Source of the DNA: a virus | Virus record (IMG/VR): IMGVR_UViG_3300042987_003796 | Location: 1 to 64,000 of that record | Length of the DNA stretch: 64,000 nucleotides | Strand: one strand, 5' to 3' | Shown here: positions 20,745-41,657 of the stretch, piece by piece | Layout: every line of letters begins with the position of its first letter | Numbering within the stretch: position 1 is the stretch's first letter | The notes under the pieces: generated by a model | What the model was told of the DNA's origin: nothing | The model's database searches: none | The model's input: only the letters and a program-made list of their open reading frames with translations | Position numbers and translations under genes: made by a program

Positions 20745-23700
20745 ATGGCTGATAATTTGACTACGGCAACAATTGATGTAAGAGCAAACACAAGGGGCTT
20801 AGAAAAAGATATTCTAAAAGCTCTTAAAACCGTTGAATTTTCTGAGATAAATACAAAGAAAAGTTCGCAGGCTCTTGGTAGAATAACTGGACAGGTTTCT
20901 GAATTTAATAAAAGCCTGGAAGCGTCTAATGCTCGCGTAGTTGCTTTCGGTGCGTCTGCTGGGGCTATTTTTGCTGTCGAAAAAGCTTTTTCAAGCTTAA
21001 TTTCTTCTACGATAGAGGTGCAGAAAAAACTTACAGATGTAAATATTCTTCTTAATTTATCTTCCTCTGGTTTGCAAAAATTTGGAGATAGCTTATTTGA
21101 TATAGCTAAAAATACAGCTCAGTCTTTTTCTACTGTTGCAGACGCCGCTACCGAGCTTTCTCGTCAGGGTCTTGGCGTTGAAGAGACATTAAAAAGAACA
21201 AATGCCGCGTTAGTTTTGACTAGACTCAGCGGACTTGATGCAAAATCTAGCGTTGATGCGTTGACCGCTACATTAAACTCTTTTGCTGGGTCTGCGCTTG
21301 ATGCGGTAGAGGTAGTTAATAAATTAGCAAACGTTGACGCCGCTTTTGCTGTTAGTTCTGCTGATCTTGCCAATGCTATTAGTCGCGTTGGTTCTACTGC
21401 TGTTGATGCTGGGGTATCCTTAGATGAATTAATTGCTTTAGTTACTTCTGCTCAACAAACTACGGCGAGAGGTGGAGCTGTAATTGGTAACTCTTTTAAA
21501 ACTATTTTTACGCGTTTGCAAAGAGGAAAAGTTCAAGATTTGCTTGGCTCTCTTGGGGTCGATACAACAGAAGGACAAAGTGCGATAAGTTTATTACAAC
21601 AACTTGCGGCAACTTATGATACTCTTGGAGCGGCTCAAAAATCTTACGTTGCAGAGCAGGTTGGTGGCGTTTTCCAAATCAACATTTTAAAAGCAGCTTT
21701 ATCTGATTTGGGTAAGGAGTATAGTATTTTTGGAAGAGCTTTAGATACTTCATTAAGCTCAACAGATGAAGCTATTAGAAGAAATGAACTTTTAAATCAA
21801 ACTATTTCTGCCTTATCTAGTCAAGCCGTTTCTGGATTGCAGCAGGCGGCGAGCAAAATCGGCTCTATTGTTTTTGAACCTAACGCAAAGGGTTTTCTTT
21901 CTGGTTTTAATAATTTATTAGATTCTTTTAATAATATAGATGCAGAAAGCGCTGGTGGAAAGTTAATGACTGGATTTTTTAAGGGTATTGGTGACTTTAT
22001 ATCTGGTCCTGGAGCAGTTTTAGCTACCGCTGTTCTTGTAAAATTATTTTCCAATTTAGCAAAATTTGCAGCTGGGTCAGCAAAAGAATTACTTGGAACT
22101 AATAAAGCTGCACAACAACAGGCTGCTATAGAGCAAAGTATTTTAAGTATACTTCAAAAGAATAGTCAATTTACTAGTCAGATCTTGAGTGGTAAAATGA
22201 CAACAGTTCAGGCAGAAAAGGAATTATTGACTTATTTAACTGCTCAATCAAATATCCTTAGGGAGCAGGAAAGATTAAGCAAAATTATTGGTGCAAATTT
22301 GATGACAGCTGGAGTTAGTATTGGGTCAAGTGGTATTCCAATTGTAGCTGCATCAAAAGGTAAAAAGGCTGCTTCATCTGGATTTATACCAAACTTTGCA
22401 TCAGATCAGGCGATTGGTCAGGCGATGGAGAATGCTGGAGCTAGACAGCATGGATACAAAGCTGGAAAAGCTAAAAAAACAACTATTCATGATGGTAATG
22501 GAAAATCATTCAAATCTTTTGTTAATAGCAAAGAGGATGTAAAAACTTTTACTAATTCCGCTGGCAAGAAAGCTACAATAGTTCGTCCTCCAAATGGGTT
22601 TGGTGAAAATACTCAATATGCTGCTGGTGGATTTGTTCCTAATTTTGCAAAAAATAAAAATGAAGATTCGATAAGAAAAGGTGTGTTGTTTGAAAAACGT
22701 TTGAATAAAGCCCTTAGTGGATCTGCCTCGTTTTCTCCTAATGCTCCAATGGATTTTCCTCTCCCAACTGGTTATGGAAATGACTATGAGATAAGAAGAA
22801 AAATTGGAATTAGTGATGCTTCTATATATGGAGATGCAAAGCTTACTAGAAGTAGAAAAAGCGAACAGAGTTTATTAGACAAATATTTAAGAACGCCAGA
22901 GGGAGTTAAGGATTTTCTTTCAGCAAAAGAAACTTCTAGAGGGTTTATTAATTTAAATCCGAATGGATTATCAATGTTGTTTTCTGGGTCTGGATCTGAT
23001 TCAAGGGGCATATCTTATATTTCCAGTATAAATACTCAGCTTTCTGCTGGCGCAAAACGTTTGATTAGTTCAAGATTTGGTAAAAATCATAAAAAAAGCA
23101 GAACATTGGCAATGCCTTATATTGCTGATAAAATAAACGAAAAAAATTTATCTGGATTAAGTTCTGGTTTTATTCCTAATTTTGGAAAAATGCAAGATCT
23201 TTATAAAAATACGAAGATGCGCGAAGGAAAGGATGATCCTTTTGGCAAAAGAGCTGCTAAGGCTAATTTAGCAGCTAAAAAGGGTATTCCAATTAAAGAT
23301 CTTGGAAACTTGCCATATACAATGATTCACCCTGGTGGTGGTAGTAATTTTCAAGCCTCTGCTAGTTATACTAAAAAAGATAAAAAAACAAATTCTTCAA
23401 CTCAATATGTTGGAAAAATATGGACTGCTGGATTAGATGCAAGCAAGTTAAATCGTAAAACTGTTCAAGATAGAGTTGGAGATGCGCTAGTTACAGAAGC
23501 AAATAATTTAACAAAAATTTTCAATCCTTCTGGGAGTGGGCAATTTAGTAACTATAGTCAGTTGTCAAATACCGGATCTGTATTTAGTGCAGCTGGCACT
23601 GTTTTTGAGTCAGCGGTCAGAAAAGCGTTTAATGTTTCTGCTCAAGGTCAAGGAGATAGGATAGATTTTCCAAATCCATCCTCTGAGCTTAGATCTTTCT

Positions 23701-26700
23701 TTGGAAATGCTCCAGGACCTTATGAGGCAAAAATTTCAAATGACGATACAAATAGGTCAAGTACTCTTTCTAAGTGGATAGCTGTAAATGGATTAAGTGG
23801 TGGATTTATTCCTAGCTTTGCTAATTCTAAGAATAGGCTGTCATTTTCTTATAAGGATAAAGATGAATTTGGAATTAGTGAAATTGAAGCTATAATGAGC
23901 GGTAAAAAAGTTGGTTCATTTAGTTATGCGGAAGATAGACCCGGAATAGTAGATGTTGGAGACCTTACAGTTAATAAAGGAGAAAGAGGAAAGGGTATAG
24001 GGAGCGCGCTTTATAAAGAAGCAATAAAAAGAAACGCCGGCAAAAAAATGAAGGGGCAATTATTGCCACAGATGAATCGCTTATTAGAGAAAATAAAAAA
24101 AGGCGAACCCGTTTCTGCTGAGACCTTATACCCACAAATAAAGAGAGCCGATCTTGCTAAAAGTTCTGTTTTTGAGGTTTATGGGCATAAGGGTTTAGAA
24201 GCAGAAAAAATGACGCGTGATCAGTTTACGTCATTTGTTAATGCAAAAATTACGGAATTAAAAAAAGACCCGAAAAGATTGCAAAGCTATTTTGGAAATG
24301 TAGAAGCTGACGAGTATGGCGGACTTGGAGTGGATTTACAAACTCAACATTCTTCTGGATTTATTCCTAATTTTGCAAGCGGAATAATAACTGGAGACGT
24401 CATTCGGGGAAATGAATATAAAAGCGTTTTAGATTTTCTTGCAAAAACAAATAAACCTGTTAGAACTATTATTGGTCCGTCTGGCTCTGGAAAAACAACA
24501 ATGGCTTCGAAAAGTGGCGGCTCTATTGTTAAGTCATTTAACGATTTAGCGGGATTTGATAGTTATATTCTTGATAGAGCTACGATGTCTATGCCAAAAG
24601 ACGAAATAGTTTCAGAAAATTTAAAAAAGATATTTCGTAAATCTGGAGAAAGCGGCGCTTTAGATTTATTGGTTGGCTCTAGAAATACTATAAAATCTTT
24701 ACGCGAAAAAAGGGCAAAAGAAGGAGACTCTTTAATTCCGGATAGAAAACAATTTACTTCTGGAAGTGGAGGTATTTCATCTTTTGTAAAGGGCGCTAGG
24801 GAATTTGCGTCTGAATATCCAGGAGCTTCTGTTTCTAGAATATTTAAAGATAAGTCTGAATATAAAACAAAAAAAATATTATCAGGGGGGTTTGTTCCCA
24901 ACTTTGCTTCTCCAAAATTAATAGAAGCTATAAATAAAAGAATTAAAAATCCAAACGTTGCCCAAAAGTTAAAAGAGGGAGCTGGCTTGAATGATTCTGC
25001 TTATATGAAAGCCGCGAGTAAGCTTGGAATAGATGTTGCTGGACTAGAGGCATTCCTGCCTCAGATGGGTTTTCCTTTGCGTGGAAAAGATAAGGTATTA
25101 AACTTATCAAAAGCTATTGGTTTTGGTTTTGGTAGATCTTTCATTATAGACGCTCTTAAGATGGGGGATTGGAATTATGTTAAGCCTCAATTTGAATCCG
25201 CTGGCTATGTGAAAGATGACTTTGATAAGTTATCTAAATATGCAAAAACGCCAAAAGGCGAATCTGCCTTAAAATGGTGGAGGTCTAAATCTAGCGGGTT
25301 TATTCCAAATTTTGCTTCTCCAAAGAAAAGCGGAAAGACTTTTAATAGTTACATGAGTAAGCCTTTATCTGATACTATCAGATTCGTGCATCCTCTTAAG
25401 CCAGTTATTGATTCAAGTGGTAATATATCTTTTCCTGGGCTTCCTAAAAAGGGCGCTAAAGCTACAATCATTCATGGGGAGGCAATGGCTGGGCAGGAAA
25501 GAATGACTCTCGATGAGTTTTATGCGCTTGCTGAAAAAAGAAAGAACGATCCAAGATTCTGGGGTAGAAACTCTTTTGAGTATGTATATAATTCAGGAGG
25601 ATTTGTTCCTAATTTTGCTGACGCATTAAATAATGCAATAGCTAGAGAAAAGTCTTCTGGGTTGTCTAATAGTCAGATATATGTTGACCAGCATAGCTCT
25701 TTAAAGAATAAAAATAACCCAATGGGTTTAATGGTTGCTAATACTAGGGATGAGCCAGGCGGTGGAATTCAGGGCATTAAAAGAGCTAAGAAAGAGGGAA
25801 AGAATCCAAAAACTTATGGAACATCTTTTGGGTATGTGCCTAATTTTGCAACTGGACCGATACAACCGTCTCAAGATTACTTGAATGCCTTGAATGAGGC
25901 TGTTAAGGCGGTAGATAAGCTATCGCAAAGTTCTAAAAAAGCATCTGAGGGTTTAAATCGAGCTTCTGATAGTGTTGAGAAATTTGATAACGGAGCTTCT
26001 GGGTCTGGCAAGGGAAAAATGGGTAAGATTGGTGGATTCCTTAAAGATAATGCTTTAACTGTAGGTTTTGGTTTGCAGTCTATAGCTAGTATGGCTGGTG
26101 AATACGCTGGAAATGACGATACTAAATCTGGTCGCGCAATTAAGGCTGGAGCAGGCGCGGTTGGAGATATTGCTAGTTTTACAGGAACTGGGGCTATGAT
26201 TGCTGGACCTTGGGGGGCTGCTGCTGGTTTCGCTGTAGGATTAGGAAAAGCTGCGCTTGATTTGTCAAAAGCCTTAACTACTAAAGTTCCAGATATGGAA
26301 AAAGCTCTTCAGACTAGCTCTGATGCAATGAATAGATTTGGTGAATCTGGTCAAAAGCTATTGCAACTTAATGAGCAATATGGTGACGCGTTAAATTCTG
26401 GAAATCCTGGTCAGGCTGCTGATATAATGGTTAAAACTCAAAAGGCGTATGCGGAAGAGTTAAGTAAATTAACTCAAGCTCAAAGAGATTCATTTATTTC
26501 AGCAGTTGCTCAGGGTAAGGGGCAAGAAGAATATGCAAAAATCCTTGGCGAAATGCAGGATTCTGTTAGAGCCTCTGAGTCGGCTTTGTCTTTGCAAAAA
26601 TTTAGTGAGAGCAAGGGCTTTTTTGGTGGACCTGATAAAAAACTTATATCTGGAATAGATAAAACTTTAGTTTCTGATTTGACAAAGGGTCTTGACGCAG

Positions 26701-29700
26701 ATGCGATTAAAAAAGCTTTAGAAAATGCTTCCCCTGTTCTTACTGATAAGAGCGCGGGAACAGAAAATCAAGCTATTGCATTAATGAAAAGCCTAGCTCA
26801 GTCAGAGAGTCTTACAGTAGATCAAAAAGCTAATTTTGAAAAGATTATTGATTCTTTTGCTTCTGCGGCGGCGCAAACAGATTTAGGAGCAGTTTCTGAG
26901 GCTTTCGTTGAAGGAATTCAGTTAAAGCCTAAATCATTTGAAGATGTTCAAAAAGCTCAAGAGGCGTATAAAAAATCCCAAGAAATAAACAATGCAAAAA
27001 TAAAAGAAGAGATTGCTATTAGAGAAAAAGCAAATGCTTCTTTATTGCAGCTTCAATCTGAAACGGAAGCTATATATACTAGCTTCAATGATTCTCTTGA
27101 AAGATTTATTTCTAGTGTTGAAACAGCCGCAAAAATGCGAGCTGCGTCAGTAGAGTTCAAGCAAGAATTTTATTCTGAAGGCGGAGTTCCAAGCGCCGCT
27201 GAGTCGCAAAAAGAAAAAAATATAGTTCAGGCTTCGAGGGATAATTTGACGGTTGATATTTATAAATCTCAAGTTGAGGCTTCTAATAATTTTAATTCCG
27301 CTGTTAAGGATTTAGTTGGAGGTCTTGATATTGACATAGCAAAGCTTGGCGTCGGCGGTCAGTCGATGGATCAGCAGAATCAGCTGCTTGGCGTACAGTC
27401 TTCTATACAGAAAGCATTGTTGCCAATTCAGGGGATGATATTAAAGGGAGACTATGAAGGGGCAAGACAAAAAACAAGCGAGGCTCTTTCTGGATTAAAG
27501 CCAGAAGAAGTTAGTGCGGTTGGCGTTGACGCGATAACAAAAGTTGGTCAGCAATTAGATCAAACATTGCAGGATAGCGCTAGGAAATTAGATCAGATTA
27601 AACAAAATTCACAAAAAGATCTTGCTATTCAAGCTCAGCAATTAGTTTTTCAAAGAGCTATGTCTAAACTTAGTCAAGCTCAAGGCTTTGGTGGAACAGA
27701 CATAAAAGGTTTAATTACAGATAATGGAGGAGAGTCATTTCAGCAGGCTATTTCTTCTTTGAAAGATCTAAAAACGTTGGGATATAATCAAAAAGATTTG
27801 CAAAAGGGGTACGTAAAGGGCGGTGGAGCTGAAACATATGGAATAAAAGATAAAAAAGCTAATGCTGCGATGAGCGGAAAAGTTATTGATTTTTATGGAG
27901 CTGCCAGTAAAATAATCGGAAGTCCTGTTTTGTCTACCCAATCTAAGGATTTTGGCGCTTTAGCTCAAGCGGTCTCAGACCAGATAAGAAACCAGATGGA
28001 TAAGTTCAAGGCTGCTGGAGAAGGCGTTGTTGACCCTGCTGTTTTTAGTAGAATGGAAAAAGCTCTTGCCACATTAGGTGGGGGAGATATGGTTGCTCAG
28101 TTAAAAATATTTAAAAATATTGGAGTTGCAGATGTTGGTGGAAAGCAAGTAATGGATGAAGCTTTAAAAACTTATAGCGGTGGTCAGTTTGCAAATTTGA
28201 GCCCAGAGCTTAAGAAGGCATTTGAAAGCACTACAGATGAAGGGGCTGCTGCTACTTTATTATTAGTCGCTGTACAAGATAAGCAAACCCAAAGTCTAAA
28301 TACAGGATTTAATTTTTTATCTGGCATTGGAGGGCAAACAAATGACTTATTGTCAAAACAACCGGACGCAATCGCTGCAGCAATAGGAGCGGTTTTAGAA
28401 AAAGGTAGAGCCGATTCTGAGGCGCAAAAAGTTAATCGAGAAGCTGCGTCGCTAGACAAGCAGTTCTTTGATAGTAAGGCTAAACTGAAAGAAGCTAATA
28501 AAGGCGTCGATTCAGCTCAAGCCCAAGTTGATTCTATTGTTGAATCTTTAGGTGGAAATGCTAGTGGATCATCTATTGAGGATTTTATTAAATCCATGCA
28601 GGTTAGTCAAAAAGATAAAGATAAGGCTAAGTCTATAACGTCTTTAGGTAGGAATGAATATATTAATTATAAAACATCGCTGGAGATGACTCCAACAGAA
28701 ATATTGTCAGGGTTACCAACTCCAAGGAGCGACAAAGCCAAACAAGAGTCGGCAAAAAAATATGACGAAGCTGTGGCTCTTCAAGAAAAAGTAAAAAAAC
28801 TTGATGCATTGAAAGCCGCATCTCAGCAGGTTAGTAGTAAAAAATCTGAAGCTGTAGGTATTTCTAATGAAATAAAAGAAATCAATAAAAAATATGATGC
28901 GCTTGCGCCAGATATTCAAGCTAAAAACGATGCCGCAAAAAAGGCTTCTGAAGTTGCTGCGCAAAGCAGAAATCTAGTTCTTGATAAGAAGCCATTGCAG
29001 GATTCTATGGATTATTACGCAAATGATAAAAAAGCTAGAGAGGCTGCTTTAGCTCAATCTTTGGCGACAGAAAATCTCAAAAAAACAAAACAGCAAAAAC
29101 AAACTCTAGATAGAACGTCTGGGGCAGAAAAGGCTATGAGCCCTACTGGAAAGCTAGATACTTATGAAAATATAGCGATTACTAAAGCTGGCGGCGCAAA
29201 CCAAGCTGCTTTCCAAGATTTATTGTCTCAAATGGTTGTGCCGAGTTTTGATAAATTTAAAGATGTTTATGCGTCTCTTGGAGAAGAGGGTGGAGCAAAA
29301 GGCGCTTACGAAAGAACCATAAATGAAATGATTGGACCAGCTCTTTCCCAAAAGCTGCCAATTGTAGAATCTGGATCTCAAGGTCAGCAAATAGCTTCTG
29401 CTATTACAGAGGGCATTAAGCAAGCTTCCGCCTCAGTGGTTGGTGGAGGCATTACACGCGAAGAAAATAAATCGTTGATGAGCAAACATGGGTATGTTGA
29501 AGGAGAGGGTTGGAAAAATGAAAGCGGTAAGGCGGCTTATTCTGAAGAACTTAAAATGTTAAAAGAACAAAAGCAAGCTCAGCAGCAGTTGTCTTCACAG
29601 ACTAGCGCAAATAATTTACAAAAAAATGCAGAGCAAGAGCAGGCGAAAAAACAAGAAAGCGAGAAAGCTAAAGCTCAATCTGCTCAGCAAGATCCTACTC

Positions 29701-30008
29701 AACTTATTTCGAGTATCCTGACTACGGTTCAGCAAATTTCAACCGATCTTCAAAAAAAGGCGGCTGGAACAACGGAACAGCAACCCTCTCAGTCTGGTTC
29801 CGCTGGTGGGATAAGTGTAAGCGCGCCGGTATCATTTAGTGTAAATTCAACAGCCGGAGAAGGAAAAGATGCTGCGTCTGCGATTGCGGAACAAATAAAG
29901 GTGGGGCTATCTTCATTCTTGTCTTCTCCAGAATTTATAGGAAAAGTTACATCTATTGCTAACCAAGCTGCTGGAAATAAAACTCCTCCAACTTCACTTC
30001 CTAAGTAA
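20745..30008 (+). CDS. Tape measure protein with an internal array of motif-delimited accessory domains
   Basis: N-terminal TP901-like TMP region (ELSRQGLG...DAAFAVSSADLA...GGAVIGNSFKTIF), Ala/Gln/Lys-rich helical body, hydrophobic segments, position after tube and chaperones. Confidence 0.9.
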   Translation: MADNLTTATIDVRANTRGLEKDILKALKTVEFSEINTKKSSQALGRITGQVSEFNKSLEASNARVVAFGASAGAIFAVEKAFSSLISSTIEVQKKLTDVNILLNLSSSGLQKFGDSLFDIAKNTAQSFSTVADAATELSRQGLGVEETLKRTNAALVLTRLSGLDAKSSVDALTATLNSFAGSALDAVEVVNKLANVDAAFAVSSADLANAISRVGSTAVDAGVSLDELIALVTSAQQTTARGGAVIGNSFKTIFTRLQRGKVQDLLGSLGVDTTEGQSAISLLQQLAATYDTLGAAQKSYVAEQVGGVFQINILKAALSDLGKEYSIFGRALDTSLSSTDEAIRRNELLNQTISALSSQAVSGLQQAASKIGSIVFEPNAKGFLSGFNNLLDSFNNIDAESAGGKLMTGFFKGIGDFISGPGAVLATAVLVKLFSNLAKFAAGSAKELLGTNKAAQQQAAIEQSILSILQKNSQFTSQILSGKMTTVQAEKELLTYLTAQSNILREQERLSKIIGANLMTAGVSIGSSGIPIVAASKGKKAASSGFIPNFASDQAIGQAMENAGARQHGYKAGKAKKTTIHDGNGKSFKSFVNSKEDVKTFTNSAGKKATIVRPPNGFGENTQYAAGGFVPNFAKNKNEDSIRKGVLFEKRLNKALSGSASFSPNAPMDFPLPTGYGNDYEIRRKIGISDASIYGDAKLTRSRKSEQSLLDKYLRTPEGVKDFLSAKETSRGFINLNPNGLSMLFSGSGSDSRGISYISSINTQLSAGAKRLISSRFGKNHKKSRTLAMPYIADKINEKNLSGLSSGFIPNFGKMQDLYKNTKMREGKDDPFGKRAAKANLAAKKGIPIKDLGNLPYTMIHPGGGSNFQASASYTKKDKKTNSSTQYVGKIWTAGLDASKLNRKTVQDRVGDALVTEANNLTKIFNPSGSGQFSNYSQLSNTGSVFSAAGTVFESAVRKAFNVSAQGQGDRIDFPNPSSELRSFFGNAPGPYEAKISNDDTNRSSTLSKWIAVNGLSGGFIPSFANSKNRLSFSYKDKDEFGISEIEAIMSGKKVGSFSYAEDRPGIVDVGDLTVNKGERGKGIGSALYKEAIKRNAGKKMKGQLLPQMNRLLEKIKKGEPVSAETLYPQIKRADLAKSSVFEVYGHKGLEAEKMTRDQFTSFVNAKITELKKDPKRLQSYFGNVEADEYGGLGVDLQTQHSSGFIPNFASGIITGDVIRGNEYKSVLDFLAKTNKPVRTIIGPSGSGKTTMASKSGGSIVKSFNDLAGFDSYILDRATMSMPKDEIVSENLKKIFRKSGESGALDLLVGSRNTIKSLREKRAKEGDSLIPDRKQFTSGSGGISSFVKGAREFASEYPGASVSRIFKDKSEYKTKKILSGGFVPNFASPKLIEAINKRIKNPNVAQKLKEGAGLNDSAYMKAASKLGIDVAGLEAFLPQMGFPLRGKDKVLNLSKAIGFGFGRSFIIDALKMGDWNYVKPQFESAGYVKDDFDKLSKYAKTPKGESALKWWRSKSSGFIPNFASPKKSGKTFNSYMSKPLSDTIRFVHPLKPVIDSSGNISFPGLPKKGAKATIIHGEAMAGQERMTLDEFYALAEKRKNDPRFWGRNSFEYVYNSGGFVPNFADALNNAIAREKSSGLSNSQIYVDQHSSLKNKNNPMGLMVANTRDEPGGGIQGIKRAKKEGKNPKTYGTSFGYVPNFATGPIQPSQDYLNALNEAVKAVDKLSQSSKKASEGLNRASDSVEKFDNGASGSGKGKMGKIGGFLKDNALTVGFGLQSIASMAGEYAGNDDTKSGRAIKAGAGAVGDIASFTGTGAMIAGPWGAAAGFAVGLGKAALDLSKALTTKVPDMEKALQTSSDAMNRFGESGQKLLQLNEQYGDALNSGNPGQAADIMVKTQKAYAEELSKLTQAQRDSFISAVAQGKGQEEYAKILGEMQDSVRASESALSLQKFSESKGFFGGPDKKLISGIDKTLVSDLTKGLDADAIKKALENASPVLTDKSAGTENQAIALMKSLAQSESLTVDQKANFEKIIDSFASAAAQTDLGAVSEAFVEGIQLKPKSFEDVQKAQEAYKKSQEINNAKIKEEIAIREKANASLLQLQSETEAIYTSFNDSLERFISSVETAAKMRAASVEFKQEFYSEGGVPSAAESQKEKNIVQASRDNLTVDIYKSQVEASNNFNSAVKDLVGGLDIDIAKLGVGGQSMDQQNQLLGVQSSIQKALLPIQGMILKGDYEGARQKTSEALSGLKPEEVSAVGVDAITKVGQQLDQTLQDSARKLDQIKQNSQKDLAIQAQQLVFQRAMSKLSQAQGFGGTDIKGLITDNGGESFQQAISSLKDLKTLGYNQKDLQKGYVKGGGAETYGIKDKKANAAMSGKVIDFYGAASKIIGSPVLSTQSKDFGALAQAVSDQIRNQMDKFKAAGEGVVDPAVFSRMEKALATLGGGDMVAQLKIFKNIGVADVGGKQVMDEALKTYSGGQFANLSPELKKAFESTTDEGAAATLLLVAVQDKQTQSLNTGFNFLSGIGGQTNDLLSKQPDAIAAAIGAVLEKGRADSEAQKVNREAASLDKQFFDSKAKLKEANKGVDSAQAQVDSIVESLGGNASGSSIEDFIKSMQVSQKDKDKAKSITSLGRNEYINYKTSLEMTPTEILSGLPTPRSDKAKQESAKKYDEAVALQEKVKKLDALKAASQQVSSKKSEAVGISNEIKEINKKYDALAPDIQAKNDAAKKASEVAAQSRNLVLDKKPLQDSMDYYANDKKAREAALAQSLATENLKKTKQQKQTLDRTSGAEKAMSPTGKLDTYENIAITKAGGANQAAFQDLLSQMVVPSFDKFKDVYASLGEEGGAKGAYERTINEMIGPALSQKLPIVESGSQGQQIASAITEGIKQASASVVGGGITREENKSLMSKHGYVEGEGWKNESGKAAYSEELKMLKEQKQAQQQLSSQTSANNLQKNAEQEQAKKQESEKAKAQSAQQDPTQLISSILTTVQQISTDLQKKAAGTTEQQPSQSGSAGGISVSAPVSFSVNSTAGEGKDAASAIAEQIKVGLSSFLSSPEFIGKVTSIANQAAGNKTPPTSLPK
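22380..25850 (+). repeat. Nine dispersed copies of peptide motif G[FY][IV]P[NS]F[AG] within the TMP
   Basis: Motif Gly codons at 22380, 22629, 23166, 23802, 24357, 24888, 25296, 25599 and 25830. Confidence 0.95.
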
Positions 30009-30014
30009 TATTCT

Positions 30015-31664
30015 ATGAATTTTAGTAATGTAAAAGTTTTAAGCTACGAGCACAAAAATAACTTTTGGGGTGATAAAGCTTTTAGATATGGTTCTACTAT
30101 TTCAATATCGATAAATGGATATATTCTTGATTTATCCAATACTTCTGGCGTTAAGGATATTTTTCAGTCTTGCAAAAATTTATCAGACTCTTTGGGTGCT
30201 TATCAGGATATAGTTATTGATAATGTTAATTATGGTAAGGGTAAAATAACAAACGTCTCTTTTGATTCGGGAAACTGGGTTAAGGTTACAGAGTATACTG
30301 CCTCTATAGAAATAGTTGGAGATGGAAATCTTGGTTCTGTTAATTTTACAGATTTAGATTTTTCTAATCAAGTTATTAATGATATTAAATCAAACATTCA
30401 ATATGTAGAAGAATTTAATGAGAGTTATTCTATAGACTACTCTTCTGATCAAGATTCGGTTTCTGGGGTTCATTCTATAGATTTAAAAATTTCTACTTTG
30501 TTTTCTGGAGATAAAATTAATTTTGCAAAAAATTTAGCGTCGGCTCTTTTTTCTAAAACATTTTCCGAGAATTTATCTAAAATAACTTATTCAAAACCTT
30601 CTGAAAACTTAAGAAAAGATTTTTACTCAGAGAATTATGATTCTATAAGTGGCGCATGTGGATTCAAAAGAAGCTTTTCATATTCTAACGATTCTTCTTG
30701 TTTTAGCAGGAATAGATCTATTTCTGTAAATTTTGGAGAAGATGGGATAACTACTGTTAGTGAATCAAATACTATAAAAGGCGAATGCATGAATGCGTCT
30801 CTTTTTGATTCGGCGGAATCTGGATTTTCTTCTGAGATTTCTGGCGTTTTTTCTCGCTGTAATGCTGCGTTTACAACTTATCAGACTCAGTTTGGATCGG
30901 TTGATCCTTTAATTAATAAGGAGATTGAAAGGTCGGTGAAAAGAAATAGATTTACTGGAGAAATAGAATATACAATATCTTTTACAAATGATAAGCGTAG
31001 AAAAAATTTATATACTTTTGAGTATGTTCTAGACTTGTCTAGATCTGAGGATTTTATATGGAGCGCCGTTGAAAATGGATCCGTGAAAGGCGATGGGATT
31101 GTGGGATCTACGGATAGATTTAATAATGCTTTGAATGGATGGAATACTGAAAAAGCAGGAATAAGTGCTAGGGTTCAATCTTTTTATACCTCTAATGCAA
31201 AAATAAAACCTATACCATCTGTATTAAATTTAATTAATAAAAATATAACTCACGCACCTTTTGAGGGATTAATATCTTATTCTTATAATTATACAGACGA
31301 TTCTACACTTGATATGTCTAGCGCAATAAGAAGAAAAAGTATTAATATTACAGACTCTAAAGCTACAAGGATTCATAATGATTTTTTAATACCTGGGGGC
31401 GTGGTTAAATATGCAATCGCTCAAGCGGCTAACCAGTCAAAACAAGGGGAGAGGGAGGTAGCTGGATCTTTAGAAATATCTAGCTCCACTTTGCCATTTA
31501 AGGGCAATGATTATTTTCAGGAATGTGTAAATTTAGCTTCTTCTAATAAGGGGACTGGGACAGATTTATATTTAGAATCTTTTTCTTTTTCCTCCGACGA
31601 AATAGAGCAAAATGTAGAATTTAATGGAAAATATAAATATTCATCAGCTGCCAGTAGCAGTTAG
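30015..31664 (+). CDS. Putative tail-tip/distal tail protein
   Basis: Follows the TMP; repeated beta-rich units resembling the next gene (RFTGEIEY vs RFNGKYSI). Confidence 0.55.
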   Translation: MNFSNVKVLSYEHKNNFWGDKAFRYGSTISISINGYILDLSNTSGVKDIFQSCKNLSDSLGAYQDIVIDNVNYGKGKITNVSFDSGNWVKVTEYTASIEIVGDGNLGSVNFTDLDFSNQVINDIKSNIQYVEEFNESYSIDYSSDQDSVSGVHSIDLKISTLFSGDKINFAKNLASALFSKTFSENLSKITYSKPSENLRKDFYSENYDSISGACGFKRSFSYSNDSSCFSRNRSISVNFGEDGITTVSESNTIKGECMNASLFDSAESGFSSEISGVFSRCNAAFTTYQTQFGSVDPLINKEIERSVKRNRFTGEIEYTISFTNDKRRKNLYTFEYVLDLSRSEDFIWSAVENGSVKGDGIVGSTDRFNNALNGWNTEKAGISARVQSFYTSNAKIKPIPSVLNLINKNITHAPFEGLISYSYNYTDDSTLDMSSAIRRKSINITDSKATRIHNDFLIPGGVVKYAIAQAANQSKQGEREVAGSLEISSSTLPFKGNDYFQECVNLASSNKGTGTDLYLESFSFSSDEIEQNVEFNGKYKYSSAASSS

Positions 31665-31695
31665 TGTATAAATTTATATAAAGGTAATTTAAAGG

Positions 31696-33318
31696 ATGCA
31701 AGGACAAGTTAAAATATTATATGGAAATTTGGATATATTTTCAGGAATATGTCCTACTCCTTTTGCTTACTTTGATAAAGAGTATATAGAAAATGGATCT
31801 GTTTGGGGTTCTAAATATAATTTAAAATTAGATGGTCAGATAACCGGAAGGCTTGGGCCGGCTGCTTTTTATGACTTAGAAAATAAAAAAAATAAACTTA
31901 TTTCTGGATTTAAAAATGATAGTTTATCAATAAAAATAACGGAGGACAGTGTTGATGTTTTTAATTCTGATATATGCCAGGTAGATTCTATTTCTTTTGA
32001 AGAGTCTAAATATTATGCGTTGCTACCCTTTTCTATATCGGCTTCTTGTTATGATAAAAGCTCTTTTGGGCAAAACTATGGGGTAACCAACCCTCAAGAC
32101 TCTTGGGAATATTCAGAAAATGAAGATGGTACTTTATCTTTGAGGCATTCTGTTTCTGCCGATGGATTTAATATCTCAGGCGCGTCTGCTATTTCTCAAG
32201 CTAAAAAGTGGGCTTTATCTAAAACAGGAATAAGCAATAGAGTAAGCTCTTTAAAATTTAATAATGTTTCCGCCGGTGATTTTATTCTTGATTCTTTTTC
32301 TGAACAAGTTGATAGATTTAATGGTAAATATTCTATCGAAGAAGTTTATAAAGCTGATTTGCTTAAAACTAATTCTTTTGGAAATGGTATACTTAGATAT
32401 ACAGTTGATGTATCAAAAAATATAGAAAATGGAATTTCGGATGTTTCTATTCAGGGAAGCGTAGTCGGAAAAACAAATATTGGACTAGCTGATATGTCTG
32501 TATTGAGGGCTAAAATGAATGCAGAGAATTTTTTTCAAATTGCTGCTGAAGCCGCCTCAAAATCTACGGGTACAACAAAAATAAATGATAAGCCATACTC
32601 TAGAAGCGTCACAGAAAATCAAAATTCATCAGAGATATCTTTTTCGATAAACTATGACGATGATCCTGTTGCTCCTGGAACTGCAAAATGCATATATAAA
32701 GTAGATCTTTCTGAGAATTTAATAAAAAATATAGTTGATATAAAGATAGACGCCGAAATTTTATGCGAGAGGGGGGACGCTTCTGTTAGGTGGAATGCCG
32801 TTAAAACTTATTACTCTAATACGTTCAATGGATATGACTTAGCTTTAAAAGAATATAAAAGAGCTGGATATTCTAAATCTTTTAGTTCTACCCCAAAAAC
32901 AGAGTCAATCAATTTTGACGAATTTAATAGTAAAATATCATATTCTGCAAGTTGGAGCGATAGATATATGCCTTATCCAGATATTTTGACATCTATTTCT
33001 GAAAAGGTAAATATAACTCCATCATTGAAGGTGTATGCGGTCCAGCCTTCGTTATATACAAATGGGGCGCATAATGTTCAAGATTTTGGGTGCGCAAATA
33101 GGGCTTCTGTTTCGATATCAATAGAAGCAACGTGTAGGCCAGATAAAACAATTTCAGAATTAAAAAATTGCGTTTCTTCTGAGCTTTCTAGGCTTCGCTC
33201 TATTTATGTAAAAAATATAAATTTATTTACAGACGAGGCAAGTGAGTCAGTAAACGAAAAACTTAAAAGAATGTCGGTTTCTTATAGTTATTCTTTTGAT
33301 GGAGATATTGTTTCATAA
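31696..33318 (+). CDS. Putative tail-tip protein
   Basis: Synteny; size and pattern like the previous gene. Confidence 0.55.
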   Translation: MQGQVKILYGNLDIFSGICPTPFAYFDKEYIENGSVWGSKYNLKLDGQITGRLGPAAFYDLENKKNKLISGFKNDSLSIKITEDSVDVFNSDICQVDSISFEESKYYALLPFSISASCYDKSSFGQNYGVTNPQDSWEYSENEDGTLSLRHSVSADGFNISGASAISQAKKWALSKTGISNRVSSLKFNNVSAGDFILDSFSEQVDRFNGKYSIEEVYKADLLKTNSFGNGILRYTVDVSKNIENGISDVSIQGSVVGKTNIGLADMSVLRAKMNAENFFQIAAEAASKSTGTTKINDKPYSRSVTENQNSSEISFSINYDDDPVAPGTAKCIYKVDLSENLIKNIVDIKIDAEILCERGDASVRWNAVKTYYSNTFNGYDLALKEYKRAGYSKSFSSTPKTESINFDEFNSKISYSASWSDRYMPYPDILTSISEKVNITPSLKVYAVQPSLYTNGAHNVQDFGCANRASVSISIEATCRPDKTISELKNCVSSELSRLRSIYVKNINLFTDEASESVNEKLKRMSVSYSYSFDGDIVS

Positions 33319-33324
33319 TTATAT

Positions 33325-35286
33325 ATGTCATCTATTAATTCTTCTGGCTTTAAATATAGACTCGATTCATTAGGTATAACTAGTGAATCATTGCTTGTTG
33401 CATATGATTTTGTTTCTGGATCTAATTTTCAGCAAGGTTTTTTAAATACTCCCCCATGGGTTACTGGCTCGACGTTTAGTGGAAAACTTAATGGAATTTA
33501 TAGTAATTTTTATACAAAATCTGGAAGCGGTTATTTTAATGGGTTTAATTCTGTTTCAATCTCTGGAAAAATTCCAGAAGACGATTTTACTTTTTTATTT
33601 TGCTATGAAAAACAAAGAACGGGCGAAGAAATTTTATTGAGTTCTGCGGCCGGAGGCTCTTTTGCTTCTGCATCTGGATTGACTGTTGGAATTAATGACG
33701 CAAATAAGCTTTATTTAGAATACTGGAGCCCAGTAGTAGGAAAGAAAACTTTAGATTATACAGATAATATAAGCTCTAAAAATTTAGTTTTCTTTAGCAA
33801 GACATTTGATGAATTTCAATTAGGTATTTTTGATCCAATTGGCGGAGATTTATCTTTTTCTTCAGCTTCAATAGATCAAATCGAGGGATATTCTCACTCT
33901 GATTCTTTTATAATTGGGGCAAATAACTCGTCTTCTTACTGGTCTAAAGGCAGGTCTTTTAATGGATATTTTGATGATTTTTATTGTATAAGTGGTAAAA
34001 AACCGAACGACTATTTTATAGAGCTTTTTAGCGGATTTTATTCGATTCCTGTAACTGGATTGATAAGTGGTCAATATCAGGTATGTAATTATGTTTCTGT
34101 TATGAGTGGTAGCGGGGTCAATCTAGGAACTGGGATAACGGGATATGAAACTAGGGTTACATATACTACCGGATACGTTCCAACTGGCTGTTTTAATAGT
34201 GGATACTCTTATCTTGTTGGAACTGGAATTACTGGTTATGAGGAAAGACTTATTGGGACTCAAAAAGATGCTTGTGATCAAGACGTGCCTATATATGTAA
34301 GAACAGCGTTAACTGGAAATATTTATGCAACTGGTTATACTTATGCCTGTAGCGGATCTGGTCAAGTAATAACGCCAACCTATACAAATTATCCATTGAC
34401 CGGAATGTTAACTGGTCAAGTTTTTGTTGAGGTTCTTTCTGGTATTTGTTCTAATTTTACTGGCTATTATCCAGATGGTCTTCAATTAGATTCAGGCTTT
34501 CTATCGTCTCTCGGATTTGATTCTGTATATTTGCTTAATCAATGCAGCAATATTGTTACGCATGAATGTTTTTTACATACTGGTGGATTTGCATCTAATA
34601 ATATAAATTTAACTCCGTCTTTTGATTTAGTAGCAAATGACTGGATTATTCCAAATATTCACTCTGGCTCAGGAAAAAATTTATTTTTTAATAATGGACA
34701 GTTAATGCTAGAAAGTGGGTGGTCGTCTTATCAGGAAAAAGGTGTGACAAAATATAATATAACGGGAAATATTTTTTTGGACGGCAATATTATTAGGTCA
34801 AATGGAGACTGCAGCTTAGAAGATTCTATTATATATGATAACTCAAATTTTATTAGCGGCGTATCTGTTTATCTTTTAACCGGATTAGGGTCTTCTGCTA
34901 GTTTTAATTCTATTTTGAATTCTAGTTATCAAGATTTTTCCATTTTTCTAAATGGAGTCAAAATGACTAGTGGATTTGATTATTTTAATTCTAATTTTAT
35001 TTTTAATGTGCCGCCTTCTTCTGTTTTAACTAAGGTTAATAATAATTATATTTCTGATGGTGCAAAATATATAACTGGATCTGGTAATCTTTTAACGCTG
35101 GGATCTAATGGCTCGTCTTCTTTTTTAAAAAAATCTTCTCAAGTTTATTTAAACGGCTTGAGACAATTGATAAATAGCGACTATTTTGAAATTTCTAGAT
35201 TCTCTATTTTAAGTGGCTGTCCAGCTCAAGAAGTAAGCAATAACCAACTAGTATATTCTTTTAATGAAGAGTTTTGGAATATTTAA
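33325..35286 (+). CDS. Tail protein with LamG/ConA-like N-terminal domain
   Basis: FIIGAN...FNGYFDDF signature; TGITGY repeats; C-terminal (F/L)NG repeats. Confidence 0.55.
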   Translation: MSSINSSGFKYRLDSLGITSESLLVAYDFVSGSNFQQGFLNTPPWVTGSTFSGKLNGIYSNFYTKSGSGYFNGFNSVSISGKIPEDDFTFLFCYEKQRTGEEILLSSAAGGSFASASGLTVGINDANKLYLEYWSPVVGKKTLDYTDNISSKNLVFFSKTFDEFQLGIFDPIGGDLSFSSASIDQIEGYSHSDSFIIGANNSSSYWSKGRSFNGYFDDFYCISGKKPNDYFIELFSGFYSIPVTGLISGQYQVCNYVSVMSGSGVNLGTGITGYETRVTYTTGYVPTGCFNSGYSYLVGTGITGYEERLIGTQKDACDQDVPIYVRTALTGNIYATGYTYACSGSGQVITPTYTNYPLTGMLTGQVFVEVLSGICSNFTGYYPDGLQLDSGFLSSLGFDSVYLLNQCSNIVTHECFLHTGGFASNNINLTPSFDLVANDWIIPNIHSGSGKNLFFNNGQLMLESGWSSYQEKGVTKYNITGNIFLDGNIIRSNGDCSLEDSIIYDNSNFISGVSVYLLTGLGSSASFNSILNSSYQDFSIFLNGVKMTSGFDYFNSNFIFNVPPSSVLTKVNNNYISDGAKYITGSGNLLTLGSNGSSSFLKKSSQVYLNGLRQLINSDYFEISRFSILSGCPAQEVSNNQLVYSFNEEFWNI

Positions 35287-35312
35287 TTAAATTTTAATAT
35301 AATAAAAGCAAT

Positions 35313-37730: not shown

Positions 37731-37735
37731 ATTTT

Positions 37736-38866
37736 ATGATACTTTCTAGCGGCGATATATTTAAAAGTTTTGCAGAACAAAGATGTTTTTCTTTTGATTG
37801 TGACTTATCAATAAAAACCTCTACTGGCATTTCTAAGATTTTAGCTTCAGGTGAGACATCTTCAGTTTCATTATTCTCTTTTAAGAGTGGTAGGATTTTT
37901 GATTGTTTTAATCGATTCGTAAAATCTTATTCTCCATCTGAGTCCATTAATATTTCTGGAAACTTTTGTAGCGGTATTTTTGGATACTATATAGATCAAT
38001 ATCCTGTTTGTTTAAATTCTAATGTTTCTACTTCTACTTCTTCTTTTGAAAATTTAGTTTTTTCAACTAGCGGATCTGAAATTGAATTTTTTGTTGATAT
38101 TTTTGGAGAGGTTAAGCCTAAATATGAATTGGTATTTCCAAGTCAGAGTCAAGTCACGGGTAGTCCTATAACTGGTTTTTTAAAAAATACTTCTTCGAAT
38201 GCGTTTCAGAGTTTTAAACTTTTCTCTGGGTCTTCGTATTTTCCTGGGGCTGATTATAATATATCATCTACAGTACAGGGACTTAAAATAAAGCCAAATA
38301 ATTCTGGACAAATAGTGTTATCTTTTTCTGGCGGTACATCTTTTTCTTTAGACTCTAATAAGCAGGCTTTGCCTATATATGGAAATTTATATTTGGATAC
38401 AAATTTTGGAAGCATTGATATTCCAGTAAGTATACCATTAAAATCTTCTCCTTTTTATTATATAGATTTTCAAGAAGATTCTAACATACAATACGGTGAG
38501 ACAGGAAAATTTTGGTCTTTCGAATTAGAAAGACAAGCTTGTTCTGGAACTAGATTTGAATTTATTTTAGATGACGTGAGGTGGCTTGATCCATATAATT
38601 CATTTTCAGATAAGTTTTTTATAAAAACTGGTTATAATAATGGAGCTTTTCTTTCATCCTCTGTTCCATACAATATAGCAAGAGGTATTTATGCTGCAAC
38701 TGGATATATTTCTGGAGCTGGTTGCTCTGGAGACGACACGTTTAATGTTAGATTTGAAATACTCCACTCTCATCCTAGTGGAATATATGCAAATAAATTT
38801 AAATATTCTATAAGCGGAATAGAGGAAAAATTTTTGTTTTCTGGGTTTTTAGAAGAAGGTTTATGA
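37736..38866 (+). CDS. Putative tail protein
   Basis: Ser/Phe/Gly-rich beta protein in the tail operon. Confidence 0.5.
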   Translation: MILSSGDIFKSFAEQRCFSFDCDLSIKTSTGISKILASGETSSVSLFSFKSGRIFDCFNRFVKSYSPSESINISGNFCSGIFGYYIDQYPVCLNSNVSTSTSSFENLVFSTSGSEIEFFVDIFGEVKPKYELVFPSQSQVTGSPITGFLKNTSSNAFQSFKLFSGSSYFPGADYNISSTVQGLKIKPNNSGQIVLSFSGGTSFSLDSNKQALPIYGNLYLDTNFGSIDIPVSIPLKSSPFYYIDFQEDSNIQYGETGKFWSFELERQACSGTRFEFILDDVRWLDPYNSFSDKFFIKTGYNNGAFLSSSVPYNIARGIYAATGYISGAGCSGDDTFNVRFEILHSHPSGIYANKFKYSISGIEEKFLFSGFLEEGL

Positions 38867-38888
38867 TAATAAAGGAGGTATTGTATTT

Positions 38889-40709: not shown

Positions 40710-40722
40710 CCTACTATATTAT

Positions 40723-41613: not shown

Positions 41614-41657
41614 ATATTTATATGTAGTTATATTTCACTGTAAAATTACACTTCTTT

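What the first reader, a model, noticed from the sequence alone, without database searches (positions are those of the whole stretch)
22380..25850. Tape measure protein carries a motif-punctuated array of enzyme cassettes (candidate virion-delivered effector polyprotein)
Seen: nine copies of G[FY][IV]P[NS]F[AG], mostly preceded by SS or SG, at aa 546, 629, 808, 1020, 1205, 1382, 1518, 1619 and 1696. They cut about 1150 aa into eight units of 83, 179, 212, 185, 177, 136, 101 and 77 aa that do not look like TMP helical sequence. Four units carry enzyme signatures (two PD-(D/E)xK-like, one GNAT, one P-loop). Established: TMPs leave the tail during infection and several are proteolytically processed; phage polyvalent proteins carry similar effector domains. 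Inference: the motif is a processing or assembly signal that releases anti-host or anti-defence enzymes on injection, making the TMP a modular payload carrier. I do not know of a described system with this layout.
Basis: partly seen in the sequence, partly recalled or inferred. Interest (0 to 1): 0.93.

Follow-up and report, generated by a model that had tools for sequence, protein, structure and literature searches.

The report
Tape measure protein with swappable cassettes
The tail-length "ruler" protein of an uncultured aquatic phage carries eight separate protein modules, some enzyme-like, each fenced by the same ten-residue peptide at which related phages swap modules; the tail probably brings ready-made proteins into the host, but neither delivery nor cutting has been shown.

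Summary
ORF 20745-30008 (+) encodes a 3087-aa TP901-type tape measure protein (TMP). It has nine G[FY][IV]P[NS]F[AG] copies at exactly the stated residues; 7e-5 are expected by chance.

In 120 homologues the peptide occurs 3-15 times, and the stretches between copies fall into at least 50 unrelated families. These are gained, lost and reordered at the peptide. A profile of the last unit finds 1164 protein clusters, nearly all giant proteins.

The peptide is selected as protein, not DNA. Its core G-F-[IV]-P matches the mapped maturation cut site of phage T5's TMP and its relatives, [SG]F[VTI]PR|A.

Enzyme calls are only signature-level: a minimal GNAT, a Walker A motif, and two remotely related E..D..(D/E)xK units. 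Related arrays hold ART-PolyVal, Ntox24 and nucleotidyltransferase cassettes.

Cleavage, delivery and folds are untested.

This scan has already reported the same system on other DNA. I found no paper describing it.

The parts
20745..30008 (+). Tape measure protein gene, 3087 aa (P0001)
   Evidence: Single ORF. PF10145 E 9e-24 at aa 120-308. TIGR01760 E 1.2e-27 at aa 77-401. PHROG TMP families, best 1.2e-41.
20745..22379 (+). N-terminal TP901-type TMP core, aa 1-545
   Evidence: 89% nucleotide identity to L001 up to nt 22651.
22380..22628 (+). Junction peptide 1 (22380-22400) plus unit 1, 83 aa, family 'C'. This is the first unit in 59 units' worth of the 120 homologues.
   Evidence: 47-sequence alignment A8 with invariant E17, Y26, N49, E52. 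No Pfam or PDB relative.
22629..23165 (+). Junction peptide 2 (22629-22649) plus unit 2, 179 aa, family 'I'. It carries an FE..DFP..DAK signature.
   Evidence: hhalign to family B 83.7%, E 8e-6, 76 columns. No Pfam or PDB hit. In relatives this slot holds the unrelated families K, L and P.
23166..23801 (+). Junction peptide 3 (23166-23186) plus unit 3, 212 aa, family 'B', a candidate PD-(D/E)xK-like domain
   Evidence: 31-sequence alignment A4. Invariant G144, F147, E148, D167, F179, K189, K203, with D/E two residues before K189. No Pfam or PDB hit.
23802..24356 (+). Junction peptide 4 (23802-23822, the only copy with Ser for Asn) plus unit 4, 185 aa, family 'D'. It is a minimal GNAT-like core plus a conserved ~100-aa tail.
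   Evidence: PF00583 22.5 bits (cut-off 20.7), E 1.5e-4, profile positions 38-87 of 116 only. PDB profile search gave only weak GNAT rows, E 0.05 or worse.
24357..24887 (+). Junction peptide 5 (24357-24377) plus unit 5, 177 aa, family 'E', with Walker A GPSGSGKTT
   Evidence: Only P-loop-region matches: Pfam E 0.025 or worse, PDB designed P-loop protein E 5e-4.
24888..25295 (+). Junction peptide 6 (24888-24908) plus unit 6, 136 aa, family 'F', orphan
25296..25598 (+). Junction peptide 7 (25296-25316) plus unit 7, 101 aa, family 'G', orphan
25599..25829 (+). Junction peptide 8 (25599-25619) plus unit 8, 77 aa, family 'A'. This is the near-universal last unit of the arrays.
   Evidence: 116 units in 120 homologues. 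35-sequence alignment A6 with conserved RE..AG, NP.G, V.N, DEP. Profile finds 1164 clusters. No Pfam or PDB hit.
25830..25850 (+). Junction peptide 9 (GYVPNFA), the end of the array
   Evidence: Nucleotide identity to L001, L002 and L004 ends at 25847-25854.
25851..30005 (+). C-terminal TMP part, about 1385 aa, helix-rich, without junction peptides
   Evidence: 86% nucleotide identity to L001 over 26036-29982.

Best explanation
The gene encodes the tape measure protein of an uncultured aquatic phage. The record holds 84 kb and is estimated to be about 55% complete. A string of eight autonomous cassettes lies between the N-terminal TP901-type core and the long helical C-terminal part. Each cassette is fenced by the decapeptide A-[AS]-[SG]-G-[FY]-[VI]-P-N-F-A.

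Shown here: cassettes are exchanged, added, lost and reordered between phages by recombination at or beside the peptide-coding DNA. The peptide itself is kept by selection on the protein, not on the DNA.

Inferred:
(i) The peptide is a post-translational handling signal. It is most likely a maturation cut site of the same kind as the T5 pb2 site [SG]F[VTI]PR|A, so that the assembled tail holds separate or separable cassettes.
(ii) The cassettes are ejected with the TMP ahead of the DNA. They include a minimal GNAT, a P-loop protein and two E..D..(D/E)xK units here, and ADP-ribosyltransferase, Ntox24 and nucleotidyltransferase units in relatives. They would act in the host before phage genes are expressed.

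My odds:
- modular, swappable array: 0.95
- virion-carried payload acting in the host: 0.6
- peptide is cleaved: 0.35-0.4
For: TMP identity.

Nine copies against 7e-5 expected.

Spread in the family:
- All 120 listed homologues carry 3-15 copies.
- 675 inter-motif units fall into 50 families of two or more members plus 50 singletons, with different orders such as ..E-F-G-A against ..E-G-F-A, and B-E against E-B.

Breakpoints:
- 147 of 408 BLAST HSP ends lie inside a motif against 6% expected. 254 of 408 lie within 10 aa against 20% expected.
- Nucleotide identity to the nearest locus, L001, breaks at 22651, 25285, 25599 and 25847, which are motif edges.

The peptide:
- The logo of 794 copies gives N 98%, F 92% and A 76%, with unconserved flanks. 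The nine window copies differ at synonymous sites.
- In 1.81 Mb of related loci, over six frames, the motif occurs only in TMP frames.
- A profile of the last unit finds 1164 clusters at E<=1e-3.

Cassette content:
- Family B keeps E148, D167 and K189 in 31 of 31 sequences at about 20-60% identity.
- Of 105 cassette representatives, single members hit ART-PolyVal, Ntox24, PolyA_pol and GNAT.

Published parallels:
- T5 pb2 is cut after R1127, which frees an enzyme domain that stays in the tail (PMC10038345, passages).
- The T5 sequence there is NSFVPR|A. Klebsiella phage AmPh_EK80 has NGFIPR|A and Vibrio phage GRLPWR has QSFTPR|A.
- The N-terminal part of the P23-45 TMP is a virion RNA polymerase that transcribes pre-early genes (PMC10770324, abstract and passages).
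Against: No experiment or computation here shows cleavage or injection.
- The match to T5 covers four residues. The residue before the T5 cut is Arg, here it is Asn, and the downstream A-x-G-G of T5 is absent.
- Profile comparison of unit 1 with the T5 and lambda C-terminal regions found nothing (0.1%).
- No protease or any other family was recognised in 29 of the 30 neighbouring ORFs scanned. The one with significant hits is a tail-fibre-like ORF.
- The window's own enzyme assignments are partial: GNAT covers 50 of 116 profile positions, the P-loop match is Walker A only, and the E..D..(D/E)xK units have no Pfam or PDB hit.
- At most 9 of 105 cassette representatives hit any Pfam family.
- Peptidoglycan hydrolase domains in three relatives sit about 800 aa or more downstream of the array and are not fenced by the motif. 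So a fence is not needed to embed an enzyme in these TMPs.
- From general knowledge, not a call: folded cassettes of 180-490 aa in three or six TMP copies would hardly fit a tail-tube lumen about 4 nm wide.
- Folds and domain edges could not be checked.
Confidence: 0.45

Rival explanations
1. The peptide is not cut. It is a docking or handling site bound once per cassette, either by a phage part (tail tube lumen, tail assembly chaperone, hub) or by a host periplasmic chaperone or prolyl isomerase of the SurA/FkpA kind. That partner would keep the ejected, unfolded chain soluble and help each cassette refold.
For: The motif is a short, strictly conserved island in unconserved, gappy, G/K/S/P-rich linkers. 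That is the usual look of a linear binding motif. The 7-residue phage-display peptide that binds the P1 domain of E. coli SurA with Kd 1-14 uM contains Y-I-P-N, identical to the GYIPNF form of the motif. The published SurA preference is Ar-X-Ar-X-Pro (PMC7195389 and PMC11401910, passages). The periplasmic prolyl isomerase FkpA is needed for HK97 DNA entry in connection with its TMP (Cumby 2015, as cited in a passage of PMC7229145). After T5 cleavage, the new C-terminus of pb2* (ending ..SFVPR) docks between hub subunits (PMC10038345).
Against: The first aromatic of the SurA consensus is missing: position -2 is A or S in 94% of copies. The four-residue match was recalled from many known peptide motifs, so chance is not excluded. 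The hosts are unknown, because all genome-contig hits are aquatic MAG bins. The complex prediction meant to test self-association was not available.
Confidence: 0.25
2. The cassettes are not effectors. They are structural or regulatory parts of the tail, for example spacers that set tail length, lumen plugs, or DNA-end binders. Their turnover reflects drift or adaptation of the virion, not an arms race.
For: At least 96 of 105 cassette representatives hit no Pfam family. The array is strongly basic, 15.5% K+R against 9.6% D+E, which would suit contact with the leading DNA end. The first and last units are conserved in position. Cassettes were not found as free-standing genes.
Against: Catalytic-type residues are invariant across distant members of family B. 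Toxin and effector families occur among cassettes: ART-PolyVal and Ntox24. Array length varies many-fold among related TMPs, which is hard to square with a fixed structural role.
Confidence: 0.15
3. The peptide is only an in-frame recombination joint. It would be a conserved linker that gives microhomology for cassette exchange, like the VENN motif of CdiA, with no role in the finished protein.
For: Homology breakpoints fall on the motif-coding DNA to within a few bases. The VENN and PxxxxDPxGL motifs demarcate swappable toxin ends in the same way (PMC3150448, passages).
Against: The nine copies differ at synonymous positions (GGA/GGT/GGG, ATA/ATT, CCA/CCT/CCC, AAC/AAT, GCA/GCT), while the amino acids are kept at 92-100% over 794 copies. 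So selection acts on the peptide. A joint would not need an invariant Pro-Asn.
Confidence: 0.08

Closest known systems
Phage T5 tape measure protein pb2 and its maturation cut into pb2* and pb2C (Linares et al. 2023, PMC10038345; passages read, supplements not seen)
   Same: It is a TMP with an embedded enzyme domain that a cut separates from the rest, and both pieces stay in the tail. The cut site NSFVPR|A (NGFIPR|A and QSFTPR|A in relatives) shares [SG]-F-[VI]-P with the junction peptide.
   Different: T5 has one site near the C-terminus and one peptidoglycan-acting domain. The window has nine sites in the head-proximal half, and its cassettes carry signatures of enzymes that would use cytoplasmic substrates. 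Arg stands before the T5 cut, against Asn-Phe here. The catalyst in T5 is unknown. No profile-level homology was found around the site.
Thermus phage P23-45 gp96, a 5002-aa TMP whose N-terminal part is a virion RNA polymerase (PMC10770324; abstract and passages)
   Same: A cytoplasm-acting enzyme is fused to the N-terminal, head-proximal part of a giant TMP and is used at the start of infection.
   Different: It is a single fixed enzyme. There is no repeated delimiter and no cassette exchange.
Polyvalent proteins of phages and conjugative elements (Iyer et al. 2017, PMC5512222; passages)
   Same: These are giant proteins stringing together unrelated effector domains that enter the recipient with the DNA. 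ART-PolyVal occurs in one related cassette. That paper proposes autoproteolytic release.
   Different: The paper has no occurrence of 'tape measure'. It describes no conserved delimiter peptide, and the proposed carriers are head or conjugation proteins. The marker domains MuF and MPTase were not seen here.
Polymorphic toxins: the CdiA VENN and Rhs PxxxxDPxGL motifs (Poole et al. 2011, PMC3150448; passages)
   Same: A short conserved peptide sharply demarcates swappable toxin modules, and homology between loci begins and ends at its coding sequence (compare).
   Different: These proteins have one variable end each, with a cognate immunity gene, and are bacterial surface or secreted proteins. 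Here up to 14 cassettes stand in tandem inside a virion protein, with no immunity genes seen.
Asn-dependent self-cleavage of virion proteins, e.g. the NwV capsid at Asn570|Phe571 (PMC8144610; passages)
   Same: An Asn-Phe bond is cut by cyclic imide formation only after assembly, and this frees an entry peptide. The junction peptide has a nearly invariant Asn-Phe.
   Different: There is no sequence or fold relation, and no catalytic base has been identified here. This is a chemical precedent only.

Membership tests
TP901-family phage tail tape measure protein (PF10145 / TIGR01760) | Match to the family core region above the curated cut-off | tested here: met
   PF10145 84.9 bits (cut-off 33.2), E 9e-24. 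TIGR01760 96.9 bits (cut-off 28.8).
TP901-family phage tail tape measure protein (PF10145 / TIGR01760) | Position in a tail gene module of a phage genome | tested here: inconclusive
   The record is an IMG/VR virus record. Upstream ORFs hit tail-fibre and tail-tip families. The ten ORFs immediately around the gene hit nothing.
T5 pb2-type processed TMP | Cut-site sequence [SG]F[VTI]PR|A-x-G-G | tested here: inconclusive
   G-F-[IV]-P is shared. Arg is replaced by Asn-Phe, and A-x-G-G is absent.
T5 pb2-type processed TMP | Proteolytic cleavage during tail assembly, with both fragments in the virion | not testable with these tools
   This needs virion proteomics. No cultured relative exists in the phage collection.
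Polyvalent proteins (Iyer et al. 2017) | Several unrelated effector or enzyme domains in one giant phage protein | tested here: inconclusive
   Eight unrelated units, apart from the B-I pair. Only signature-level enzyme calls in the window. ART-PolyVal and Ntox24 each in 1 of 105 related cassettes.
Polyvalent proteins (Iyer et al. 2017) | Marker domains such as MuF or a zincin-like MPTase | tested here: not met
   None among the Pfam hits of the protein, its units, or 105 cassette representatives.
GNAT acetyltransferase (unit 4) | Full GNAT fold with acetyl-CoA motif A | tested here: inconclusive
   PF00583 scores just above its cut-off, but only over profile positions 38-87 of 116. The motif A-like RGKGIG is invariant at R, G and G in 5 of 5 sequences. 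The PDB profile search gave GNAT rows only at E 0.05 or worse.
P-loop NTPase (unit 5) | Walker A and Walker B motifs in a P-loop fold | tested here: inconclusive
   Walker A GPSGSGKTT matched. Walker B (YILD) was read by eye only. No family reached its cut-off.
PD-(D/E)xK nuclease (units 2 and 3) | E ... D ... (D/E)xK catalytic residues on the restriction-endonuclease fold | tested here: inconclusive
   The residues are invariant in 31 of 31 family B sequences and aligned between B and I. No Pfam or PDB sequence match. The fold was not testable.
SurA P1-domain client motif | Ar-X-Ar-X-Pro | tested here: not met
   The second aromatic, the aliphatic residue, Pro and the following Asn match the display peptide. 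The first aromatic position is A or S in 94% of 794 copies.

The most novel reading that the evidence does not exclude
The decapeptide is a programmable release joint. Once the tail is assembled or fired, each Asn-Phe bond is cut. The cut is made either by the peptide's own Asn, as in nodavirus and tetravirus capsids, or by the still unknown activity that cuts T5 pb2. The tail then delivers a set of free, separately folding enzymes into the cell ahead of the DNA. Because the joint also guides in-frame recombination, over a thousand phage lineages share a plug-in system for loading new effectors into the virion. Most of the more than 100 cassette families would then be unknown anti-host or anti-defence proteins.
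Probability: 0.25. Interest if true: 0.92.

Novelty: new variant of a known kind. Interest (0 to 1): 0.8.

Why it matters
TMPs are known to carry single embedded enzymes (T5, mycobacteriophages, P23-45). Polyvalent proteins are known to string effectors together. A TMP built as an exchangeable, delimiter-fenced cassette array is not in the papers I could search, yet it occurs in over a thousand protein clusters from lakes and oceans.

If the cassettes are delivered, this is a large, mostly uncharacterised reservoir of proteins that act in the first seconds of infection. At least 96 of 105 cassette representatives hit no Pfam family. It would also be a natural scaffold for loading proteins into phage tails.

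The peptide gives a concrete handle on two open questions in phage biology: how, and by what, TMPs are processed (unknown for T5 and lambda), and how folded domains travel in a tail tube.

Tried and rejected
1. Units 1 and 8 as copies of one domain. Single-linkage clustering joined them. With the motif stripped they separate, and hhalign gives 0.2%. Rejected.

2. Unit 1 as a homologue of the region after the T5 or lambda cut sites. An eye-level likeness (GG.Y.PG, GE..E.V) is not supported: hhalign gives 0.1% for both.

3. A natural gene split at the motif. P0126 ends right after a motif, but its cluster holds 3031-aa full-length forms and fragments broken at many places. These are frameshift artefacts. 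Short hits of the unit 8 profile lie on contigs of 1.5-3.8 kb or have full-length cluster mates.

4. Free-standing family B proteins. Only 6 hits among proteins of 117-560 aa, and they are fragments.

5. Cultured relatives. No tblastn or megablast match in 50,697 phage records.

6. PDB sequence and profile searches for units 1-8 gave nothing significant beyond a Walker A match. Pfam, PHROG and NCBIfam on the units gave GNAT only.

7. Lambda gpH has two ATGG[FY] copies about 40 aa apart near the expected cut. Its cut site is unmapped (PMC12617516), so this stays a lead.

8. Peptidoglycan hydrolase domains as fenced cassettes: they are not fenced.

9. Protease search among neighbours gave nothing.

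11. The supplementary figures of the T5 paper (fig. S5G, table S3) that show the cut-site mapping could not be seen.

Full report
Observation. The window holds one 3087-aa ORF at 20745-30008 on the + strand. A regex scan finds G[FY][IV]P[NS]F[AG] nine times, at aa 546, 629, 808, 1020, 1205, 1382, 1518, 1619 and 1696. A protein of this composition should hold 7e-5 such matches, and 2 of 20000 shuffles held even one. The array (aa 546-1702) has about twice the aromatic content of the flanks, more G/P/N, fewer helix-favouring residues, and a net basic charge.

What the protein is. Residues 77-401 match the TP901 tape-measure core: PF10145 at E 9e-24, TIGR01760 at E 1.2e-27, and PHROG TMP families down to 1e-41. 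The record is an IMG/VR virus record of 84,021 bases, about 55% complete by CheckV. Upstream ORFs hit tail-fibre and tail-tip families. Otherwise the ORFs scanned around the gene hit nothing significant in PHROGs or Pfam. The 50,697 GenBank phage records hold no match. Relatives come from lake and marine metagenomes and from aquatic MAG bins labelled Flavobacteriales, Proteobacteria and others. The host is therefore unknown.

The array is a family trait, and the cassettes move.
- A word-index search with aa 530-1720 gave 247 hits, of which 120 were listed. Nearly all carry PF10145. Every one of the 120 has 3-15 copies of the motif.
- The 675 inter-motif units form 50 families of two or more members and 50 singletons. 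The window reads C-I-B-D-E-F-G-A. Relatives read, for example, C-K-B-D-E-F-G-A, C-P-B-D-E-G-F-A, C-P-E-B-D-H-Q-G-A, and B-A.
- Family C (83 aa) usually opens the array. Family A (77-79 aa) almost always closes it.
- I took BLAST HSP ends of the window protein against relatives, left out HSPs above 95% identity, and counted only ends within aa 560-1690. Of 408 ends, 147 fall inside a motif (6% expected) and 254 fall within 10 aa (20% expected).
- At the DNA level, identity to the closest locus, L001, runs at 89% up to nt 22651, two bases past motif 2. It is lost over slot 2 and is 87% from 23786 to 25285, just before motif 7. It resumes exactly at 25599 (motif 8) and ends at 25847 (motif 9).
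- In 1.81 Mb of fetched loci the motif occurs only in TMP reading frames.
- A profile of unit 8 with both flanking motifs finds 1164 clusters at E<=1e-3 among 1.84 billion representatives (939 at <=1e-10). Nearly all are 1400-5400 aa long. The short ones are fragments.

The peptide. A logo of 794 copies reads A(42%)-[AS](94%)-[SG](64%)-G-[FY]-[VI]-P-N(98%)-F(92%)-A(76%). The positions on either side carry almost no information. In the window the nine copies use different synonymous codons. Selection therefore acts on the peptide, and the DNA likeness is a by-product that recombination can use. More distant relatives carry degenerate forms: GYIPMYA, NIPNFA, GFTP[DS]. The B-D junction has the only Ser-for-Asn copy in the window, and in P0122 it has decayed to GFMPKG.

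What the cassettes are.
- Unit 4 passes the PF00583 cut-off (22.5 against 20.7 bits), but only over the motif A region. It is followed by a highly conserved ~100-aa part of unknown kind.
- Unit 5 has a Walker A motif and nothing more that can be scored.
- Unit 3 (family B) keeps G144, F147, E148, D167, F179, K189 and K203 in 31 of 31 sequences at about 20-60% identity. This gives an E..D..(D/E)xK pattern.
- Unit 2 (family I) aligns to that core at 83.7% probability, E 8e-6, with FE, DFP and [DE]AK in register. Neither unit 2 nor unit 3 hits Pfam or PDB sequences.
- Units 1, 6, 7 and 8 are orphans.
- Among 105 representatives of the 118 cassette families found in the fetched loci, nine Pfam families were hit, each by one member: DUF7178, PolyA_pol head, Ntox24, ART-PolyVal, two GNAT models, DUF6278, AAA_30 and NB-ARC.
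- The repertoire is therefore mostly unknown, with a sprinkling of toxin and effector families.

What did not hold. Units 1 and 8 are not homologous. Unit 1 is not detectably related to the T5 or lambda regions after their cut sites. Apparent gene splits at the motif are assembly frameshifts. Family B does not occur as a free-standing gene. The lysozyme, chitinase-like and SLT domains of three relatives lie far downstream of the array and are not fenced.

How it may work.
- T5 pb2 is the only TMP with a mapped maturation cut. It is cut after R1127, between a hydrophobic stretch and a muralytic domain. Both fragments stay in the tail, and after firing the new C-terminus docks in the hub (PMC10038345, passages). 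The sequence there is NSFVPR|AEGG in T5, NGFIPR|AEGG in Klebsiella phage AmPh_EK80 and QSFTPR|ANGG in Vibrio phage GRLPWR. A fourth relative lacks it. So [SG]-F-[VI]-P is shared with the junction peptide, while Arg is replaced by Asn-Phe.
- The catalyst of the T5 and lambda cuts is unknown, and the lambda site is unmapped (PMC12617516, passages). Lambda has two ATGG[FY] copies in the right region.
- An Asn-Phe bond is cut by the Asn itself in the NwV capsid after assembly (PMC8144610). This is a chemical precedent only.
- Alternatively, the peptide could be a chaperone site. The phage-display peptide that binds the SurA P1 domain shares Y-I-P-N with it (PMC7195389, PMC11401910), and HK97 needs the periplasmic isomerase FkpA in connection with its TMP (passage in PMC7229145). 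However, the first aromatic of the SurA consensus is missing.
- I rank cleavage first, docking or chaperoning second, and a bare recombination joint last.

Payload. P23-45 shows that the N-terminal part of a TMP can be an enzyme that works in the cytoplasm at the start of infection (PMC10770324). The window's array likewise lies in the head-proximal half. Its recognisable cassettes would need acetyl-CoA, ATP or DNA, all of which are cytoplasmic. This is inference. Nothing here shows that the array is in the virion or leaves it.

Known kinds and novelty. The nearest kinds are:
- processed TMPs (T5, lambda);
- TMP-enzyme fusions (P23-45);
- polyvalent proteins (PMC5512222, which has no occurrence of 'tape measure');
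- polymorphic toxins, whose VENN and PxxxxDPxGL motifs fence swappable ends (PMC3150448).

None of these combines a repeated delimiter with tandem exchangeable cassettes inside a tail protein. Full-text searches found no description. I searched 'tape measure protein' with 'polyvalent protein' (6 papers, none on this; listing only). I searched it with 'acetyltransferase domain' and 'freshwater' (listing only). I also searched the motif strings themselves (3 unrelated papers). Earlier agents of this scan reported the same system on other genomes, with the same open points. I tested their T5 lead and their count of relatives myself.

So domain edges, folds, self-association and wider gene context remain untested. 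Supplementary files of papers were not available.

Noticed in passing
window 23802-23822; protein P0122: The junction between units 3 (B) and 4 (D) is the only copy with Ser instead of Asn (GFIPSFA). In relative P0122 the same junction has decayed to GFMPKG. B and D are neighbours in most architectures, so this pair may be fusing into one cassette.
   Followed up: partly
window 20745-30008: The 3087-aa protein has no cysteine. The array is net basic (15.5% K+R against 9.6% D+E), whereas the C-terminal part is balanced.
   Followed up: no
window 8406-10313 (+): A 635-aa ORF with repeated matches to tail-fibre, collagen-like minor tail and tail-assembly PHROGs (best 1.2e-21, three stretches).
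   Followed up: no
window 5223-5762 (+) and 5762-6994 (+): A 179-aa ORF ends in a 'Phage tail tip domain' (PF24243, E 4e-12) and has a weak BppL_N match. The next ORF has a sub-threshold PATR repeat match.
   Followed up: no
window 381-20676 and 30015-39464: Of the 30 ORFs scanned beside the TMP gene, 29 have no significant Pfam or PHROG match, including the ten that flank it directly. This phage lineage is very poorly covered by family libraries.
   Followed up: partly
proteins P0083 (aa 1862-1986), P0094 (1534-1587), P0112 (1991-2077): Relatives carry a phage lysozyme, a chitinase-class-I-like domain or an SLT domain in the C-terminal TMP part, with no junction peptide within 250 aa. The window's TMP has no such domain.
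   Followed up: partly
loci L111, L075, L027: More distant TMP relatives have degenerate junction peptides: GYIPMYA, EIPNFGA, VYPNFAT; NNIPNFA; ASGFTPD, FGFTPSN. This suggests an older and wider G-aromatic-[IVT]-Pro core.
   Followed up: partly
locus L118 (phage lambda gpH aa 733-784): Lambda gpH has FATGGFTG and YATGGYVG about 40 aa apart, about 117 aa from its C-terminus. That is where the unmapped gpH to gpH* cut is thought to lie.
   Followed up: no
proteins P0126-P0137: One 90% cluster mixes 3031-aa TMPs with many fragments from contigs of about 160 kb, broken at different places. These are frameshift errors of those assemblies, not split genes.
   Followed up: yes
window 39471-42041 (-) and whole window: Three ORFs on the minus strand interrupt an otherwise + strand gene order, and cumulative GC skew flattens there. 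ARAGORN finds no tRNA in the window.
   Followed up: no
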